Shown here: positions 57,109-61,092 of the stretch, one piece after another
Numbering within the stretch: the first letter of the stretch is position 1
Layout: each line of letters starts with the position of its first letter
Source of the DNA: Candidatus Nealsonbacteria bacterium
GTDB lineage: Bacteria > Patescibacteriota > Minisyncoccia > Minisyncoccales > CAZKCU01
Direction of reading: 5' to 3'
Length of the DNA: 64,000 nucleotides
NCBI GenBank assembly: GCA_047456305.1
Contig: CP179888.1
Location: 189,307-253,306 of the forward strand
The notes under the pieces: model-generated
Told to the model about the DNA's origin: nothing
Seen by the model: the letters and a program-made list of their open reading frames with translations, nothing else
The model's database searches: none
Position numbers and translations under genes: made by a program

Positions 57109-58590
57109 CTAAGTTACCCAATACTTTTGCTTTGTCATCTTATCTTTTTTCATTTCAATTTTTTCTCTTTCTTCTCTTGATTTTTGAGCTTTCTCTTTTA
57201 ATTTCTCATCTGATAATTTAGCTAATTTCTTAACTTCTTTCTCTAAAAAATCTTTTTTATTTTTCTTTGGGTCCTCTAAGACACAGGACAGCAAGACATC
57301 TAAAATTTGTCCTACCTTAGGCCCTGGCTGAATATCTAAAGTCCTCACCACACCATTTCCCCCAACTTTAAGCATCTTTACTGAAATTGGATCCTGGGAA
57401 ACTTTCTCAATAACATATCTTAAGTGTCTTAATTTATAGGGTTCGGCTTTTGGACAACCAGAACCAATTCGATCAGCCATCCTCACCTGCAATAATTCTT
57501 CCATATTTTCTGGTCCAACCTGACGAACCAATCTTCTGACCGAACTCTTTCCCACCTCATCCGGATGATAATAGAAAAGATGATATCTGACAAGTTTGGC
57601 AATTTTTTCAATATCTTTTTTGGAAAATTTTAAGCGATTTAATATCTGCAAAGTCATTTTTGCTCCTAAAATTTCATGGCCATAAAAAGTGGCATTTAGT
57701 CCCTTGCCTCTTTTAGCCCGGGGTTTGGCAATATCATGGAATAAACTGGCCAATCTGACATGTTTATTAAAATCCCGTTTAGCTGCATATTTTAAAGACA
57801 AAAGGCTATGCTCATAGCAATCATAAATATGATGCTTATTTTGAGTTACCTTATAGCCCTCTTCCAATTCAGGGATAATATATTTTAAAAGGGAAAGTTC
57901 TCTCAAGAGCTCTAGACCATTGGCTGCTTTTTCAGTCATAATAATCTTTAAAAATTCATCTCTAATTCTCTCTTTAGAAATTGCCTGAAGCCAGGGAGCA
58001 TTTTTTTTAATAGCTTGAGCGGTTTTTGGTTCAATCTTCCATCCTTCAACCAGGGTTACCGAAAACCTTACCGCTCGCATCATCCGTAGGGCATCTTCTG
58101 AAAATCTTTCTTCAGGATTGCCCACCGCTTGAATAATCTTATTTTCTAAATCTTTTCTTCCTTTAAAAGGGTCGATAATTTCGTAATTTTTGATTTTTCC
58201 TTTTTCCTTTTTGATTTCCGTCAATGCAATAGCATTGACCGTAAAATCTCTTCTAGCTAAATCTTCTTCTATGGTTTTAGCCCAACGAATTTTATCAGGA
58301 TGTCTTTTATCTGTATATTTCTCATCAATTCTATAAGGAGTAATCTCAATTTCTTTTAATTTTTGGTTTTCACTGCCTGTTAAAACAGTAACAGTACCAA
58401 ATTTGTTATCACTAAAACTCCTCAAAAAAATCTTTCCAATTTCTCCGGGTTTAGCATTAGTGGCTACATCCCAATCTTCTGGTGTAACTCCCAAAAGTAA
58501 ATCCCGAACACAGCCTCCAACAATATAGGCCTCAAAACCAGCTTTTTTTAATTGGTCAATTACAAATTTTACTTCTTTTGGTATTTGCAT
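57109..58590 (-). CDS. cca: CCA-adding tRNA nucleotidyltransferase (class II, with HD domain)
   Basis: 493 aa. 'YIVGGCVRDLLLG', 'DWDVAT', 'RDFTVNAIA', 'EDALRMMRAVRF', and HD 'LFHDIAKP'. Consistent with most tRNA genes in the window lacking an encoded CCA. Confidence 0.85.
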   Translation of the reverse strand: MQIPKEVKFVIDQLKKAGFEAYIVGGCVRDLLLGVTPEDWDVATNAKPGEIGKIFLRSFSDNKFGTVTVLTGSENQKLKEIEITPYRIDEKYTDKRHPDKIRWAKTIEEDLARRDFTVNAIALTEIKKEKGKIKNYEIIDPFKGRKDLENKIIQAVGNPEERFSEDALRMMRAVRFSVTLVEGWKIEPKTAQAIKKNAPWLQAISKERIRDEFLKIIMTEKAANGLELLRELSLLKYIIPELEEGYKVTQNKHHIYDCYEHSLLSLKYAAKRDFNKHVRLASLFHDIAKPRAKRGKGLNATFYGHEILGAKMTLQILNRLKFSKKDIEKIAKLVRYHLFYYHPDEVGKSSVRRLVRQVGPENMEELLQVRMADRIGSGCPKAEPYKLRHLRYVIEKVSQDPISVKMLKVGGNGVVRTLDIQPGPKVGQILDVLLSCVLEDPKKNKKDFLEKEVKKLAKLSDEKLKEKAQKSREEREKIEMKKDKMTKQKYWVT

Positions 58591-58612
58591 AGCTTTATTT
58601 TAACCCAGAGTC

Positions 58613-58640
58613 TTGAATTTTTCAATTGTTTTGCTAAAAT
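58613..58640 (+). promoter_or_regulatory. sigma70-like promoter for tRNA-Arg(UCG) and downstream pilin-like gene
   Basis: TTGAAT, 16 nt, TAAAAT. The predicted +1 is about 2 nt before the tRNA 5' end. Confidence 0.55.
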
Positions 58641-58648
58641 GTTAATAA

Positions 58649-58724
58649 GCCCCCGTAGCTCAATTGGATAGAGCTCTAGTCTTCGGAACTAGGTATTGTG
58701 AGGGTCCGAGTCCTTCCGGGGGCA
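58649..58724 (+). tRNA. tRNA-Arg(UCG)
   Basis: Acceptor GCCCCCG/CGGGGGC, anticodon stem CTAGT/ACTAG, loop CTTCGGA, T-arm GAGGG-TCCGAGT-CCTTC. The variable region looks 7 nt long in my fold, so the ends are +/- 2 nt. Confidence 0.75.
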
Positions 58725-58730
58725 CCCAAT

Positions 58731-59273
58731 ATGAAAAATGAAAAATTAAAAATATTATTTTCAATAACTTTTTTAGGAAGCTTGCTTTTTGCTCCTTTGA
58801 TTTCTTTAGCTGCTGGAATCTATCAAGTTAGTCCTTATCCTGGTACTTACTATGGGAGTATGGATATTTGCTATGAAGGATTAGTTCCTTGTGGACAGGG
58901 AAAGCCTTATTGGAAGAATGGAACGATTGTAGGCGGAAAGTGTCAAGGTAACAAAGTAGATGAAGGAATGCCCTGCCAGTTCTGTCATTTCTTTGTGATG
59001 TTTAGAGGTATTTTAGATTTTATTCTGAAACTGGTTATCGTAATCGGGGTTTTAATGCTTACCATTGGCGGGTTTATGTTCCTTTTTGCCGGAGGAAGTC
59101 CAAAAACACTAGATTTAGCAAAAAGAATATTAACTTCGACGGTTATAGGTCTGGCCATAATCTTTGGCGCCTGGTTGATTATCAATACGATTTTTATGGC
59201 TATTGGAGTAGCTGGTTGGACTGGCTTAAGAGAGGGCTGGTTTTCAATTGAATGTGCGATAAAACTACCATAA
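58731..59273 (+). CDS. VirB2/TrbC-like (T4SS-pilin-like) secreted membrane protein with Cys-rich insert
   Basis: Signal peptide ending 'SLAAG', a Cys-rich domain (CYEGLVPCGQG...CQG...CQFCHF), then two TM helices joined by 'FLFAGGSPKTLDLAKR'. ATG 58731 is preferred because the ORF-track start overlaps the tRNA. Confidence 0.55.
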   Translation: MKNEKLKILFSITFLGSLLFAPLISLAAGIYQVSPYPGTYYGSMDICYEGLVPCGQGKPYWKNGTIVGGKCQGNKVDEGMPCQFCHFFVMFRGILDFILKLVIVIGVLMLTIGGFMFLFAGGSPKTLDLAKRILTSTVIGLAIIFGAWLIINTIFMAIGVAGWTGLREGWFSIECAIKLP

Positions 59274-59276
59274 ATT

Positions 59277-59304
59277 GCCCCGCTAGCTCAATTGGTAGAG
59301 CAGG
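59277..59304 (+). pseudogene. tRNA 5'-half relic (acceptor 5' strand plus complete D-arm only)
   Basis: GCCCCGC-TA-GCTC-AATTGGTA-GAGC-AGG, after which the sequence becomes the A-rich leader of the next ORF. No matching 3' half (GCGGGGC) follows. Confidence 0.6.
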
Positions 59305-59316
59305 AAATAAAAAATA

Positions 59317-60075
59317 ATGACCCAAAAAGACAAAGTAAAATATTCAAAATTAAAAGCAGAAGCGATTCAACTCCGGAAAAAAGGATTAAGCTATAACGAA
59401 ATTAAAAAAGAAATAAATGTATCCAAAAGCACTTTAAGCCTTTGGCTGAAAACTATTCCCTTAACCCCTGAATTAAAGAAACGATTTTATACTGCACGAA
59501 TTTTAAATTTGGCTAGAGGTCCTCAAAGTCAAAAAGAAAGAAGACTTCGAGAAATCACTAAAATTATTAACGAAGCAGAGAAAGAGATTGAACTTCCTCT
59601 CTCCCTTAAAACTTACCGTCTTTTAGGGACAGCATTGTATTGGGCCGAAGGAAATAAAACTAAAGGCTTTGAAGTTACAAATTCTGACCCTCATTTTATA
59701 CTTTTTATGGTCCGTTGGTTTGAAAAAGTGTTCAGGATTTCTCCTGAGAAATTAAAAGCGAGCTTAAATATTTATCCTCAGCAGAACGAACAAAAAATAA
59801 AAAAATTCTGGTCCCAATTAACAAACGTTCCTCTTGAGAATTTTAATAAAAGTTTTGTAAAACCACCAAATAGAGGTTATAAGAAAAACAATCTTTATTA
59901 CGGAACAATAAAAATTAGAGTTCCAAAAGGAACTGATACGCGCCATCGAGTTTTTGGATGGATAAAAAAAGTTTTGAAAGATATCACTCCGAAAGTAGAA
60001 TTAGTTGAAAAAGAATGGAAATCACTTAAAGAAACTCCTCGTCCAGCTAATATTCCAGAAAATATTGAAATTTAA
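59317..60075 (+). CDS. HTH plus degenerate LAGLIDADG-like putative homing endonuclease
   Basis: 252 aa. N-terminal resolvase-type HTH 'LSYNEIKKEINVSKSTLSLWLK' and a single LAGLIDADG-like motif 'LLGTALYWAEGNKTK'. Lies between the tRNA relic and tRNA-Lys. The family call is tentative. Confidence 0.45.
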   Translation: MTQKDKVKYSKLKAEAIQLRKKGLSYNEIKKEINVSKSTLSLWLKTIPLTPELKKRFYTARILNLARGPQSQKERRLREITKIINEAEKEIELPLSLKTYRLLGTALYWAEGNKTKGFEVTNSDPHFILFMVRWFEKVFRISPEKLKASLNIYPQQNEQKIKKFWSQLTNVPLENFNKSFVKPPNRGYKKNNLYYGTIKIRVPKGTDTRHRVFGWIKKVLKDITPKVELVEKEWKSLKETPRPANIPENIEI

Positions 60076-60077
60076 AG

Positions 60078-60149
60078 GCCCCCATAACTCAATTGGCAGA
60101 GTAGCGGACTCTTAATCCGTAAATCCAGGTTCGAGTCCTGGTGGGGGCA
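60078..60149 (+). tRNA. tRNA-Lys(CUU)
   Basis: 72 nt starting 2 nt after the preceding stop codon. Acceptor GCCCCCA/TGGGGGC, anticodon stem GCGGA/TCCGT, loop CTCTTAA, T-arm CCAGG-TTCGAGT-CCTGG. Confidence 0.85.
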
Positions 60150-60223
60150 CATTTCAGTATTTTTAAAAAGATTTAATCAATTTGAAGGTGGGAAATTAAA
60201 ATGAGACCAACCAAAACAGAAAT

Positions 60224-60868
60224 ATGAATTTTTCTAAAGACCCACAAGTTAATTGGAAATATGTTCTGATTATTGTTGTTCTGGCCGCCATTGTTGGTGG
60301 AGGAATTTGGATTTATTTTGGAGATGTTGTGAAAAATATAATTTCTCTTTCTCAATTTCCTGAAATAAAGAAACCAGAAGAAATAACCCAAGACGAAACC
60401 ACCGATTGGAAGACTTACCGCAGTGAGCAGTATAAGGTTGAATTTAAGTATCCGCCCGATTTTATATTTGATGAGAATTGTCCCGGAGGTCTCGATAATC
60501 CCGCTGTAATTAAAAGTGAATTTGTAGGATGTGATATAGGATGTAAACCACATGGAATCAGTTTCATTTTTAAAATGGGGCCTTATGCCAATATCTATGA
60601 AGCTATTAATTCGATCCCTGTGTCGGTTAGTGGTGATATAGGTCCAGTTGAATCTCTTATTTTTAATTCCAATAAATTTACCAGAGTTCAGATGATAGAA
60701 TATTACGGACCGGGCGATATTTTCTATCTGATTCAGTACCCGAAAAGCAATTTATTTCTTAGTATTGTGGTTATTCCTACGCCAAGGACAAATCCTGAAA
60801 CAATGACAATTATTGATTATGAGCAAATAACCCGCCAAATTCTCTCCACCTTCAGATTTATTGAATGA
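60224..60868 (+). CDS. membrane-anchored secreted protein of unknown function (paralog of 56007-56630)
   Basis: 214 aa. TM helix (YVLIIVVLAAIVGGGIWIYF), 'ETTDWKTYRSEQYKVEFKYPPDF' and C-terminal 'ILSTFRFIE'. Preferred over the overlapping antisense ORF at 60173-60553. Confidence 0.55.
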   Translation: MNFSKDPQVNWKYVLIIVVLAAIVGGGIWIYFGDVVKNIISLSQFPEIKKPEEITQDETTDWKTYRSEQYKVEFKYPPDFIFDENCPGGLDNPAVIKSEFVGCDIGCKPHGISFIFKMGPYANIYEAINSIPVSVSGDIGPVESLIFNSNKFTRVQMIEYYGPGDIFYLIQYPKSNLFLSIVVIPTPRTNPETMTIIDYEQITRQILSTFRFIE

Positions 60869-61092
60869 CAGCTAATCTATCTCATTTTTTTATGGTGAGA
60901 CAGGACGGAGTTGGATAATTTTTGCTTTTGGGTTAATACTAATATGAGATTGATTCGAACTATTTTCAATATAGGGCACCAAATTTAGTTTTTAGTTGTT
61001 AGTTGTTAAAAGGCGATGTCAGAAGGTGATTTTGCCTTTTTGTTTTTTTGTTTATTTTTTGATTTGAGGTATAATTAGAAATAGAAAAAATT

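What the first reader, a model, noticed from the sequence alone, without database searches (positions are those of the whole stretch)
59277..60149. tRNA 5'-half relic, an HTH/LAGLIDADG-like ORF and an intact tRNA-Lys: footprint of an insertion into a tRNA array
GCCCCGCTAGCTCAATTGGTAGAGCAGG (acceptor strand plus D-arm) stops abruptly and is followed 12 nt later by a 252-aa ORF with a resolvase-type HTH and a single 'ALYWAEGNK' LAGLIDADG-like motif. A complete but different tRNA-Lys(CUU) starts 2 nt after its stop. The relic cannot pair with the downstream acceptor 3' strand (TGGGGGC), so this is not a split or intron-containing tRNA. More likely, the insertion of an endonuclease gene destroyed one tRNA of a tandem pair.
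Basis: partly seen in the sequence, partly recalled or inferred. Interest (0 to 1): 0.55.

Follow-up and report, generated by a model that had tools for sequence, protein, structure and literature searches.

The report
Mobile gene parked at tRNA-Lys gene
The "half tRNA" is a real leftover copy of the first 31 bases of a lysine-tRNA gene, and together with the 252-aa gene behind it forms an 801-bp selfish insertion that sits directly upstream of the lysine tRNA(CUU) gene in hundreds of ultra-small (CPR) bacteria but is missing from this organism's closest relatives.

Summary
Window 59277-59307 matches bases 1-31 of intact tRNA-Lys(CTT) genes of other genomes 31/31. The 252-aa ORF (59317-60075) and the intact tRNA-Lys(CTT) (60078-60150) are as described.

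The ORF behaves like a mobile gene. Relatives of it precede a tRNA-Lys(CTT) in 154 of 155 fetched loci. The closest relatives (flanks 92-95% identical) lack it and carry a single tRNA-Lys there, identical to the window's intact copy. So no tandem pair existed and no resident tRNA was destroyed.

The relic is a different tRNA-Lys variant from the resident gene. In well-preserved cases it ends in the anticodon loop, and in one relative it is a chimera of the two variants.

ORF divergence disagrees with flank divergence in both directions. The ORF is under purifying selection (dN/dS 0.09-0.21) and is broken in 6 of 155 loci.

Best explanation: a free-standing homing-endonuclease-like cassette that targets the tRNA-Lys(CUU) gene and leaves or carries a duplicated 5' part.

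LAGLIDADG membership is weak. The only support is a motif-level match to I-DmoI (E 0.015). There is no Pfam or Foldseek support. How the host's own tRNA escapes cutting is unexplained.

The parts
59277..59307 (+). Relic: positions 1-31 of a tRNA-Lys(CTT) gene (acceptor 5' strand, D arm, 5' strand of the anticodon stem). It is the variant 'GCCCCGC / GCTC..GAGC / GGAAA'. It breaks off at the anticodon loop.
   Evidence: 31/31 identical to intact tRNA-Lys(CTT) of L013 and others. Unique in the window, with 0 chance matches. Direct repeat of 60078-60104 at 81%. Aligns to the single tRNA of the empty site L161.
59308..59316 (+). A-rich junction or leader (TAAAAAATA) between the relic and the start codon. 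It is the left edge of the inserted gene.
   Evidence: The same relic / A-run / ATG arrangement occurs in L165, L170, L089, L103, L105 and L001.
59317..60075 (+). 252-aa ORF made of an N-terminal helix-turn-helix, a long helix and a C-terminal alpha/beta domain. It is the presumed site-specific endonuclease of the cassette.
   Evidence: More than 1188 homologues at 65-90% identity. dN/dS 0.09-0.21. AF2 model pLDDT 92.9. Followed by tRNA-Lys(CTT) in 154/155 loci. Absent from the nearest relatives.
59347..59454 (+). HTH DNA-binding domain (residues about 11-46), of the homeodomain-like / transposase-resolvase type.
   Evidence: Pfam HTH_23 E 8.9e-5, just below cut-off. 37/39 family members hit HTH_23 and 34/39 hit HTH_SB. 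PDB profile hit to the Sleeping Beauty PAI subdomain, E 0.003.
59635..59658 (+). Motif L-Y-W-A-E-G-N-K (residues 107-114) at the end of a helix. It is the candidate catalytic motif (E111, K114).
   Evidence: Y108, E111 and G112 are invariant. W109 and K114 are nearly invariant across 30%-identical relatives. The motif aligns with I-DmoI LYVAEGDK; the nine best PDB hits are all I-DmoI, and seven of them have E 0.015-0.018.
60078..60150 (+). Intact, resident tRNA-Lys(CTT), variant 'GCCCCCA / ACTC..GAGT / GCGGA'.
   Evidence: ARAGORN. Rfam 71.3 bits. 74/74 identical to the tRNA of the empty site L161.
59277..60077 (+). The 801-bp segment that is present here and absent from the nearest relative. 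It can be described equally well as [relic + ORF] inserted just 5' of the tRNA, or as [ORF + new 5' part] inserted in the anticodon loop.
   Evidence: blastn of the window against L161 and alignment A4.

Best explanation
This is a small selfish cassette dedicated to the tRNA-Lys(CUU) gene of CPR/Patescibacteria. It consists of a free-standing gene for a site-specific DNA-binding nuclease (HTH plus a LAGLIDADG-like domain) lying directly 5' of the tRNA gene. It is often preceded by a truncated copy of the tRNA's first 16-38 bases.

Likely mechanism:
1. The protein, probably as a dimer, recognises the tRNA-Lys(CTT) gene and cuts within or near the DNA encoding the anticodon loop. That DNA is the centre of the inverted repeat formed by the anticodon stem.
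2. The break is repaired by copying from a cassette-bearing allele.
3. The cassette is bounded on the left by a tRNA 5' part (the relic) and on the right by a complete tRNA. Both ends of the broken tRNA therefore find homology.
4. The product carries the gene, an intact tRNA, and a displaced or co-converted 5' fragment.
5. The fragment has no function as a tRNA and decays unless a new event renews it.

In this window the resident tRNA is untouched. The relic is of foreign type, so it arrived with the gene or by co-conversion.

Shown here:
- the identity of the relic;
- the strict ORF-tRNA-Lys linkage;
- the empty site in the nearest relatives;
- the discordant divergence of ORF and flanks;
- a chimeric relic in a close relative;
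- purifying selection on the ORF, with occasional decay.

Inferred, not shown:
- nuclease activity;
- the cut position;
- repair-mediated copying;
- transcription from an upstream promoter, with RNase P releasing the tRNA.
For: 1. Linkage. In 154/155 loci with a relative of the ORF, a tRNA-Lys(CTT) starts within 200 nt of the ORF's stop, mostly -38 to +14. The upstream neighbour varies (tRNA-Arg, Leu, Met, Cys, or a pilin-like gene). A 34%-identical member shows the same arrangement (L155).

2. Presence/absence. L161 has 92-95% identical flanks, and L156-L160 have NYN 97% identical. All of them have pilin-like gene, 12 nt, one tRNA-Lys, then S15, with no ORF.

3. Discordance with flanks.
- L170 has flanks 89-93.5% identical, but its ORF region is only 78% nt / 71% aa identical.
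- L010 and L001 have more distant hosts (PNPase 62-63%, NYN 75%) but closer ORFs (74-77%).
- L005-8 and L100-108 have closer hosts (NYN 89-91%) but ORFs of only 65-67%.

4. Relics.
- 33 of 124 distinct upstream regions carry a fragment that starts at tRNA position 1 or 2 and ends at position 16-38.
- The best-preserved ones end at position 31-38, followed by an A-run and the ATG.
- The window relic is 31/31 identical to functional genes elsewhere, although synonymous sites between these ORFs are saturated (dS above 1).
- The relics of the window and of L165 (ORFs 89% identical in the pairwise alignment; dS 0.30) differ by a compensatory D-stem pair and by the anticodon stem. They therefore derive from different functional tRNAs.
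- The L170 relic is chimeric: positions 1-24 match its own tRNA, and positions 25-33 are window-relic-like.

5. The gene is functional but dispensable. dN/dS is 0.09-0.21. In 6 of 155 loci it is frameshifted or truncated.

6. Nuclease hints.
- Y108, E111 and G112 are invariant, and K114 is nearly so.
- The best PDB sequence hits of the C-terminal profile are I-DmoI motif 2 (E 0.015).
- Fused two-unit proteins exist, as in monomeric LAGLIDADG enzymes.

7. A known analogue is T4 SegB, a free-standing endonuclease in a tRNA gene cluster (PMC2330249). Fungal mitochondrial genomes show LAGLIDADG ORFs lying between a gene and its partial duplicate (PMC6279837).
Against: - No curated family (Pfam, NCBIfam, PHROGs) matches the C-terminal domain.
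- Foldseek with a pLDDT-93 model returns no LAGLIDADG structure in its listed best 50 matches from PDB or BFVD.
- hhalign against a LAGLIDADG_1 alignment gives probability 0.2%.
- The predicted order of secondary-structure elements has helices between strands where the canonical fold has hairpins.
- The cassette-bearing genome keeps an intact tRNA identical to the empty-site allele. If the target lies wholly inside the tRNA, self-immunity is unexplained.
- Very high protein conservation (65-90% across classes) and long-conserved synteny would also fit a host-beneficial gene.
- The polarity of the window/L161 difference (gain or precise loss) is not resolved.
Confidence: 0.6

Rival explanations
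1. Site-specific integrating mini-element without a homing endonuclease. The protein would be a new kind of recombinase or transposase. A circular or copied form of the element carries a copy of tRNA positions 1-33 as its attachment site and recombines with the 5' part of the chromosomal tRNA-Lys gene (Campbell-type). This automatically gives [5' part]-gene-[complete tRNA].
For: - A direct repeat of the tRNA 5' part brackets the gene exactly.
- A crossover near position 1-5 would explain a foreign-type relic next to an untouched resident tRNA.
- A crossover at about position 24 would explain the L170 chimera.
- The HTH is of the transposase/resolvase kind.
- One source calls a homologue 'transposase-like'.
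- No LAGLIDADG fold match was found.
Against: - No DDE, HUH, serine- or tyrosine-recombinase signature appears in any library.
- No terminal inverted repeats are present.
- The only specific similarity is to the catalytic motif of I-DmoI.
- Fused two-unit forms are typical of LAGLIDADG enzymes.
Confidence: 0.15
2. Domesticated, vertically inherited DNA-binding protein that serves the host, for example by controlling expression or maintenance of the adjacent tRNA-Lys(CUU) gene. The relic would be a remnant of an old local duplication, kept similar to tRNA genes by gene conversion with the neighbouring copy.
For: - Strong purifying selection.
- Very high conservation and conserved synteny over many CPR lineages.
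- An intact possible target persists next to it.
- A conserved promoter-like element lies upstream in many lineages.
Against: - The ORF is absent from the nearest relatives and broken in 6 loci.
- ORF divergence is discordant with the flanks in both directions.
- The window relic differs from its neighbouring copy at 5 of 27 positions, in a way that matches other functional variants. Local conversion therefore does not explain it.
Confidence: 0.13
3. One reading: two tandem tRNA genes existed, and the endonuclease gene inserted into and destroyed the upstream one.
For: The window has many tandem tRNA pairs. The relic differs in sequence from the downstream tRNA.
Against: - Empty sites in six close relatives hold a single tRNA-Lys(CTT).
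- No 3' half of a first gene lies between the ORF and the tRNA here or in any of the 155 loci. The ORF abuts or overlaps the tRNA.
- The same architecture recurs with relics of different types and ages.
Confidence: 0.05
4. Split, permuted or intron-containing tRNA, in which the 5' fragment is expressed and joined to a 3' half.
For: The fragment ends in the anticodon loop, the classic intron position.
Against: - The acceptor strands do not pair.
- No matching 3' half exists in 64 kb.
- No group I/II intron or other RNA family was found in the region.
- Relics are decayed or absent in most loci.
- The downstream tRNA is complete and identical to that of relatives lacking the ORF.
Confidence: 0.02

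Closest known systems
Free-standing homing endonucleases with 'intronless homing', especially phage T4 SegB (GIY-YIG) in the T4 tRNA gene cluster (PMC2330249)
   Same: - An endonuclease gene lies between genes, not in an intron or intein, next to or within a tRNA gene region.
- It has a patchy distribution among close relatives.
- It spreads together with flanking markers.
   Different: - The protein family differs (HTH plus a LAGLIDADG-like domain, not GIY-YIG).
- The setting is a bacterial chromosome, not a phage.
- It keeps a fixed partnership with one tRNA species across hundreds of genomes.
- It leaves a truncated 5' copy of the target.
- Cleavage was not tested here.
LAGLIDADG homing endonucleases (I-DmoI, I-CreI; Pfam clan of LAGLIDADG_1/2/3)
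   Same: - The motif helix ends in an invariant acidic residue followed by G-x-K. It aligns with I-DmoI LYVAEGDK plus the following strand and helix.
- Single-unit and fused two-unit forms both occur.
- The genomic behaviour is that of a selfish gene.
   Different: - No Pfam hit was obtained, and no Foldseek hit to any of the solved LAGLIDADG structures.
- Predicted helices lie between strands where hairpins are expected.
- It has an N-terminal HTH and a long connecting helix.
Genomic islands and prophages integrated in tRNA genes by tyrosine integrases. The element carries a copy of part of the tRNA, so integration restores the gene and leaves a partial direct repeat. This comparison rests on established knowledge and was not tested here.
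   Same: A partial copy of the tRNA gene brackets the inserted DNA. The tRNA stays functional. The site lies in or near the anticodon loop.
   Different: - Here the 5' part is duplicated, not the 3' part.
- The insert is about 0.8 kb with one gene.
- No integrase is present.
Free-standing LAGLIDADG/GIY-YIG ORFs in fungal mitochondrial genomes lying between a gene (cob, atp6) and a partial duplicate of that gene (PMC6279837)
   Same: An endonuclease ORF is flanked by a complete gene on one side and a truncated duplicate of the same gene on the other.
   Different: - There the duplicate is the C-terminal part of a protein-coding gene, and lies downstream.
- Here it is the 5' part of a tRNA gene, and lies upstream.
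- The setting is bacterial.

Membership tests
LAGLIDADG homing endonuclease | Match to a curated LAGLIDADG profile (Pfam LAGLIDADG_1/2/3 or NCBIfam) | tested here: not met
   No LAGLIDADG family at E up to 10 for the ORF, for 39 close homologues, or for 10 distant ones.
LAGLIDADG homing endonuclease | Motif helix ending in a conserved catalytic acidic residue | tested here: inconclusive
   L-Y-W-A-E-G-x-K has Y, E and G invariant. The profile of the C-terminal domain gives I-DmoI motif 2 as the top nine PDB hits, but only at E 0.015-0.66 over 32 residues. hhalign against a LAGLIDADG_1 alignment gives probability 0.2%.
LAGLIDADG homing endonuclease | alpha-beta-beta-alpha-beta-beta-alpha fold | tested here: not met
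LAGLIDADG homing endonuclease | Acts as a homodimer or as a fused two-domain monomer | tested here: met
   Proteins with two complete units in tandem exist: P0198, P0213 and P0215, from Actinomadura and Allonocardiopsis. This is indirect evidence only.
LAGLIDADG homing endonuclease | Site-specific double-strand cleavage with 4-nt 3' overhangs | not testable with these tools
   Needs protein and a DNA substrate.
Free-standing homing endonuclease gene (intronless homing) | Not inside an intron or intein; lies beside its presumed target | tested here: met
   No intron RNA family is found in 58500-60400. The ORF abuts tRNA-Lys(CTT) in 154/155 loci.
Free-standing homing endonuclease gene (intronless homing) | Presence/absence polymorphism at a fixed site among close relatives, and a phylogeny discordant with the host's | tested here: met
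   Empty sites are seen in L156-L161. ORF and flank identities disagree.
Free-standing homing endonuclease gene (intronless homing) | Co-conversion of flanking markers | tested here: inconclusive
   The L170 relic is chimeric. Relic and intact types are swapped among loci. These patterns are compatible with co-conversion, but the history cannot be reconstructed.
Free-standing homing endonuclease gene (intronless homing) | The allele carrying the gene is immune to cleavage | tested here: inconclusive
   The intact tRNA of the window is identical to the empty-site allele of L161. No protecting difference is visible inside the tRNA.
tRNA-integrating element with a site-specific recombinase | Encodes a tyrosine or serine recombinase | tested here: not met
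   No recombinase domain is found. Only weak hits to the HTH of resolvases or transposases appear.
tRNA-integrating element with a site-specific recombinase | A direct repeat of part of the tRNA gene brackets the insert | tested here: met
   59277-59303 and 60078-60104: 27 nt, 81% identical, 801 nt apart.
Split / intron-containing tRNA | The 5' and 3' halves can form an acceptor stem; intron signals are present | tested here: not met
   GCCCCGC against TGGGGGC leaves two mismatches. No other 3' half is present in the window. No intron family was found.

The most novel reading that the evidence does not exclude
The C-terminal domain is a previously unrecognised nuclease family that carries a LAGLIDADG-like catalytic motif on a different scaffold, and whose members are specialised on tRNA genes. 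Observed partners are tRNA-Lys(CUU) throughout CPR bacteria, tRNA-Gln(UUG) in an Actinomadura fused-dimer form, and a Lys-like tRNA with anticodon TCT in one lineage.

On this reading the enzyme cuts at the palindrome formed by the anticodon-stem DNA. The cassette stays harmless by always supplying or regenerating the 5' part of the tRNA. The cassette would thereby drive exchange of tRNA-Lys alleles between lineages.
Probability: 0.25. Interest if true: 0.75.

Novelty: new variant of a known kind. Interest (0 to 1): 0.6.

Why it matters
- If correct, a large unannotated protein family gets a role as a tRNA-gene-specific selfish element of CPR bacteria. The family has more than 1000 clusters at 90% identity, and its C-terminal domain has about 2100 cluster representatives at 50% identity. 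All are labelled 'hypothetical' or 'HTH protein'.
- It would explain orphan tRNA halves upstream of tRNA-Lys genes, which could otherwise be mistaken for split tRNAs or pseudogenes.
- It would explain why tRNA-Lys(CUU) variants are shuffled among related genomes.
- It would add a tRNA-gene case to the known ways in which an endonuclease gene occupies an essential gene without an intron, namely by duplicating part of the target.
- The enzyme could be a compact, naturally diversified, sequence-specific nuclease with an easily mapped target.

Tried and rejected
- **Rfam search of the region and of a stretch cut at the relic's end.** No tRNA hit for the half and no intron family. The covariance model is uninformative for a fragment.
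- **Pfam, NCBIfam and PHROGs on the ORF and its relatives.** Only the HTH is found.
- **First AF2 model, from 39 close homologues.** pLDDT was 75, and Foldseek returned nothing useful.
- **Second AF2 model, from 72 diverse sequences.** pLDDT was 92.9, but Foldseek against PDB and BFVD gave only low-TM alpha/beta sandwiches such as YfiB and IspF.
- **hhalign of the family against one LAGLIDADG_1 protein and against a 34-sequence LAGLIDADG_1 alignment.** Not significant.
- **Search for a second copy of the family in the window.** None found.
- **Search for a matching 3' half in the window.** None found.
- **Terminal inverted repeats around the ORF.** None convincing.
- **Promoter scan.** No site lies directly upstream of the relic. 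Candidate sites lie before tRNA-Arg (58613-58640) and inside the ORF's 3' end (59974-60001).
- **tblastn against phage and plasmid collections.** No match.
- **Exact look-up of the window's own protein.** Not on record.
- **Simple model 'relic = host's displaced 5' half, intact copy = donor's'.** Rejected for this window, because the intact copy equals the empty-site allele of the closest relative.
- **Reverse model 'relic always travels with the gene'.** Rejected in general, because two ORFs 89% identical carry relics derived from different functional tRNAs.
- **My first script for acceptor pairing.** It mis-extracted the 3' strands. I use only its relic-versus-own-tRNA comparison.
Full report
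**1. The observation**

The sequence is as described.
- GCCCCGCTAGCTCAATTGGTAGAGCAGG lies at 59277-59304.
- An ATG follows 12 nt later and opens a 252-aa ORF, 59317-60075.
- A complete tRNA-Lys(CTT) lies at 60078-60150 (ARAGORN; Rfam 71.3 bits).

The 28-mer is unique in the window and is never matched in shuffles, even with three mismatches allowed. It is a direct repeat, 27 nt at 81%, of the first bases of the downstream tRNA, 801 nt away.

The generic tRNA covariance model does not report the half. This holds even when the searched stretch ends at 59309 so that a truncated match would be allowed. A fragment with almost no pairing partners cannot score in such a model, so I used a direct test. 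I took the 120 nt upstream of the ORF and aligned it locally against 120 distinct intact tRNA-Lys(CTT) genes collected from related loci. The result was a 31/31 match to tRNA positions 1-31. The score was 62, against a mean of 20 and a maximum of 31 for shuffled controls. An example is L013, which reads GCCCCGCTAGCTCAATTGGTAGAGCAGGAAACTCTTAA.... The relic is therefore a genuine 5' part of a tRNA-Lys(CTT) gene that breaks off at the anticodon loop.

**2. The ORF always sits in front of tRNA-Lys(CTT)**

The protein has more than 1188 homologue clusters at 65-90% identity. All are from CPR/Patescibacteria metagenomes and are named 'hypothetical' or 'HTH'. I fetched 65 loci from species-representative genomes, 80 from metagenomes and 9 by exact look-up.

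In 154 of the 155 sequences scanned (those loci plus the window), a tRNA-Lys(CTT) starts within 200 nt of the ORF's stop. Most distances fall between -38 and +14 nt. When the ORF's own stop is lost, translation runs into the tRNA and stops at its internal TAG (positions 8-10) or at the TAA of the anticodon loop.

The upstream neighbour varies: a pilin-like gene, tRNA-Arg, tRNA-Leu, tRNA-Met or tRNA-Cys. A member only 34% identical in the C-terminal domain has the same partner (L155). There is one copy in the window.

**3. The relic recurs, in different states**

Of 124 distinct upstream regions, 33 carry a fragment that begins at tRNA position 1 or 2 and ends at position 16-38.
- In the clade closest to the window, the fragment runs to the anticodon stem or loop and is followed by an A-run and the ATG. 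Examples are the window, L165, L170, L089, L103, L105 and L001.
- In others it is decayed (L010, L012, L014) or absent.
- More distant lineages instead carry a conserved promoter-like element, TTGnAG-N-TGnTATAAT-TGGAGGT-ATG.

**4. The empty site**

I used the neighbouring NYN-domain protein to find the organism's nearest relatives. L161 (NYN 98%) and L156-L160 (NYN 97%) have the same gene order without the ORF: CCA-adding enzyme, tRNA-Arg, pilin-like gene, 12 nt, one tRNA-Lys(CTT), S15, NYN, PNPase.

L161 is 92-95% identical to the window in the flanks. Its tRNA is 74/74 identical to the window's intact copy. The window's relic aligns to the same tRNA at only about 79%.

Three consequences follow.
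- There was no tandem pair.
- The resident tRNA was not destroyed.
- The relic is a different tRNA-Lys variant. It has G6-C7, G10 and C25, where the resident gene has C6-A7, A10 and T25, and its anticodon stem is GGAAA where the resident gene has GCGGA. That variant exists as a functional gene in other genomes.

The 801 bp present only in the window can be read in two ways: [relic + ORF] placed just 5' of the tRNA, or [ORF + new 5' part] placed in the anticodon loop. The two descriptions are cyclic permutations of each other.

**5. Signs of mobility**

- *ORF more diverged than flanks.* L170 (NYN 96%, flanks 89-93.5% nt) carries the ORF, but the ORF region is only 78% nt / 71% aa identical to the window's.
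- *ORF less diverged than flanks.* L010 and L001 have more distant hosts (PNPase 62-63%, NYN 75%) and closer ORFs (74-77%). L005-8 and L100-108 have closer hosts (NYN 89-91%) and more distant ORFs (65-67%).
- *Relics too well preserved for their age.* Synonymous sites between the window's ORF and those of L170, L010, L001 and L005 are saturated (dS 1.2-2.0). Even so, the relics still look like functional tRNA sequence. Old neutral relics should be unrecognisable.
- *Relics from different tRNAs.* The ORFs of the window and L165 are 89% identical in the pairwise alignment (90% in the database search), with dS 0.30. Their relics differ by a compensatory D-stem pair (C13:G22 against T13:A22) and by the whole anticodon stem. 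They therefore descend from two different functional tRNAs.
- *A chimeric relic.* In L170, positions 1-24 equal its own tRNA, including a lineage-specific D-loop base. Positions 25-33 (CAGGAAGCT) resemble the window's relic. This is what recombination between a tRNA 5' part and a relic would produce.
- *Occasional decay.* The ORF is under purifying selection (dN/dS 0.09-0.21) but is frameshifted or N-terminally truncated in 6 of 155 loci.

Together these observations fit the invasion, maintenance and decay pattern of homing endonuclease genes. This step is inference.

**6. The protein**

The N-terminus is a homeodomain-like HTH of the kind found in transposases and resolvases. The C-terminal domain matches no curated family.

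An exhaustive search with the C-terminal 165 residues finds 2100 cluster representatives. These include proteins with two complete units fused, from Actinomadura and Allonocardiopsis.

Y108, E111 and G112 are invariant in both diverse alignments. G104, N122, W165 and G196 are invariant as well, D124 is invariant or nearly so, and W109 and K114 are nearly invariant.

A profile of the domain gives I-DmoI as the nine best hits among PDB sequences. LYWAEGxK...NSDP...W aligns with LYVAEGDK...NKNK...W of I-DmoI's second motif, but only at E 0.015 over 32 residues. From general knowledge, not tested here, that glutamate is a catalytic residue of I-DmoI.

Three results count against membership.
- The AF2 model (pLDDT 92.9) has helices between strands where the canonical fold has hairpins.
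- Foldseek's listed best 50 matches from PDB and from BFVD include no LAGLIDADG structure.
- A profile-profile comparison with a LAGLIDADG_1 alignment is not significant.

**7. How it most likely works**

The better-preserved relics end in the anticodon loop, and the ORF's 3' end abuts tRNA position 1. The anticodon arm is an inverted repeat in DNA, which would suit a dimeric enzyme.

I infer that the protein cuts tRNA-Lys(CTT) genes in or near the anticodon-loop DNA, and that the break is repaired from a cassette-bearing allele. The relic would serve as the left homology arm and the complete tRNA as the right one. That would copy in the ORF, keep a working tRNA, and leave a displaced or converted 5' fragment.

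Transcription probably comes from upstream. A promoter-like site lies before tRNA-Arg at 58613-58640. RNase P would free the tRNA.

A Campbell-type integration of a copy carrying tRNA positions 1-33 would give the same product. It explains the foreign relic beside an untouched resident tRNA particularly simply, so I keep it as the main rival.

**8. What remains unexplained**

- The cassette-bearing genome retains a tRNA identical to the empty-site allele. Either this enzyme does not cut that variant, or part of the target lies outside the tRNA, or cutting is controlled.
- Relic type and intact type swap among loci without following either the ORF or the host. The order of events in this lineage, gain or precise loss in L161, cannot be settled.

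**9. Comparison with known systems, and novelty**

The closest analogue is phage T4 SegB, a free-standing endonuclease in a tRNA gene cluster (PMC2330249). The partial duplicate of the target resembles two other cases. One is fungal mitochondrial ORFs lying between cob or atp6 and a truncated duplicate (PMC6279837). The other is the mirror image of integrase-borne tRNA repeats.

Full-text searches found no description of this CPR family or of its link to tRNA-Lys. I rate it a new variant of a known kind, with moderate to high interest.

Noticed in passing
window 60151-61083 (ORF 60224-60868, + strand): About 930 bp lie between tRNA-Lys and S15, encoding a 214-aa protein with an N-terminal membrane anchor and no Pfam match. 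The segment is absent from the nearest relative L161, where the tRNA is followed by a 40-nt terminator-like spacer and then S15. It is present in L170 at 89-91% nt. It is a second, independent indel at the same hot spot.
   Followed up: partly
L001 364-855 and 4566-4820 (also L002-L004): The same neighbourhood in a related genome holds a LAGLIDADG_1 gene beside tRNA-Pro and the CCA-adding enzyme, and a small GIY-YIG gene right after S15. This tRNA-rich region seems to collect endonuclease genes.
   Followed up: no
L163 2927-3686 (also L164): A family member (229 aa, 37% identical) overlaps a Lys-like tRNA whose anticodon loop reads CTTCTAA (anticodon TCT, called Arg) and whose T stem has A53:T61 instead of G53:C61. 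It may be an anticodon-shifted or decaying copy of the target.
   Followed up: no
L174 2501-4251 (Actinomadura parmotrematis, GCA_019458805.1): A fused two-unit member of the domain family (P0198, 532 aa; each unit has its own HTH) lies 80 nt upstream of tRNA-Gln(TTG), in the same orientation. No relic was detected upstream. It suggests the wider family is tRNA-associated beyond CPR, but this is a single case.
   Followed up: partly
Upstream of the ORF in many loci, e.g. L026 2440-2482, L152 1940-1982: A conserved element TTGnAGTTCGGCTnCCCTGTGTGATATAATTGGAGGTATG occurs there (33 of 123 distinct loci by a loose pattern). It has a near-consensus -35 box and an extended -10 box. However, the GGAGG lies only 1-2 nt from the ATG, so the transcript may be leaderless. 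The window's clade lacks it and has the relic plus an A-run instead.
   Followed up: partly
L001 3749-3786, L010 3256-3265 and similar loci: In 10 distinct loci the ORF ends 38 nt inside the tRNA, at the TAA of the anticodon loop. In 18 it ends 10 nt inside, at the TAG at tRNA positions 8-10. The tRNA gene thus supplies back-up stop codons.
   Followed up: partly
window 59974-60001 (+): The best promoter-like match of the region (TTGAAA-16-TAGAAT, 10/12) lies inside the 3' end of the ORF, about 77 nt upstream of the tRNA-Lys. It could drive the tRNA independently of the ORF.
   Followed up: no
window 1-64000: The window holds 24 tRNA genes in 64 kb, many in tight pairs. No tRNA-Lys(TTT) is present in the window.
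   Followed up: no
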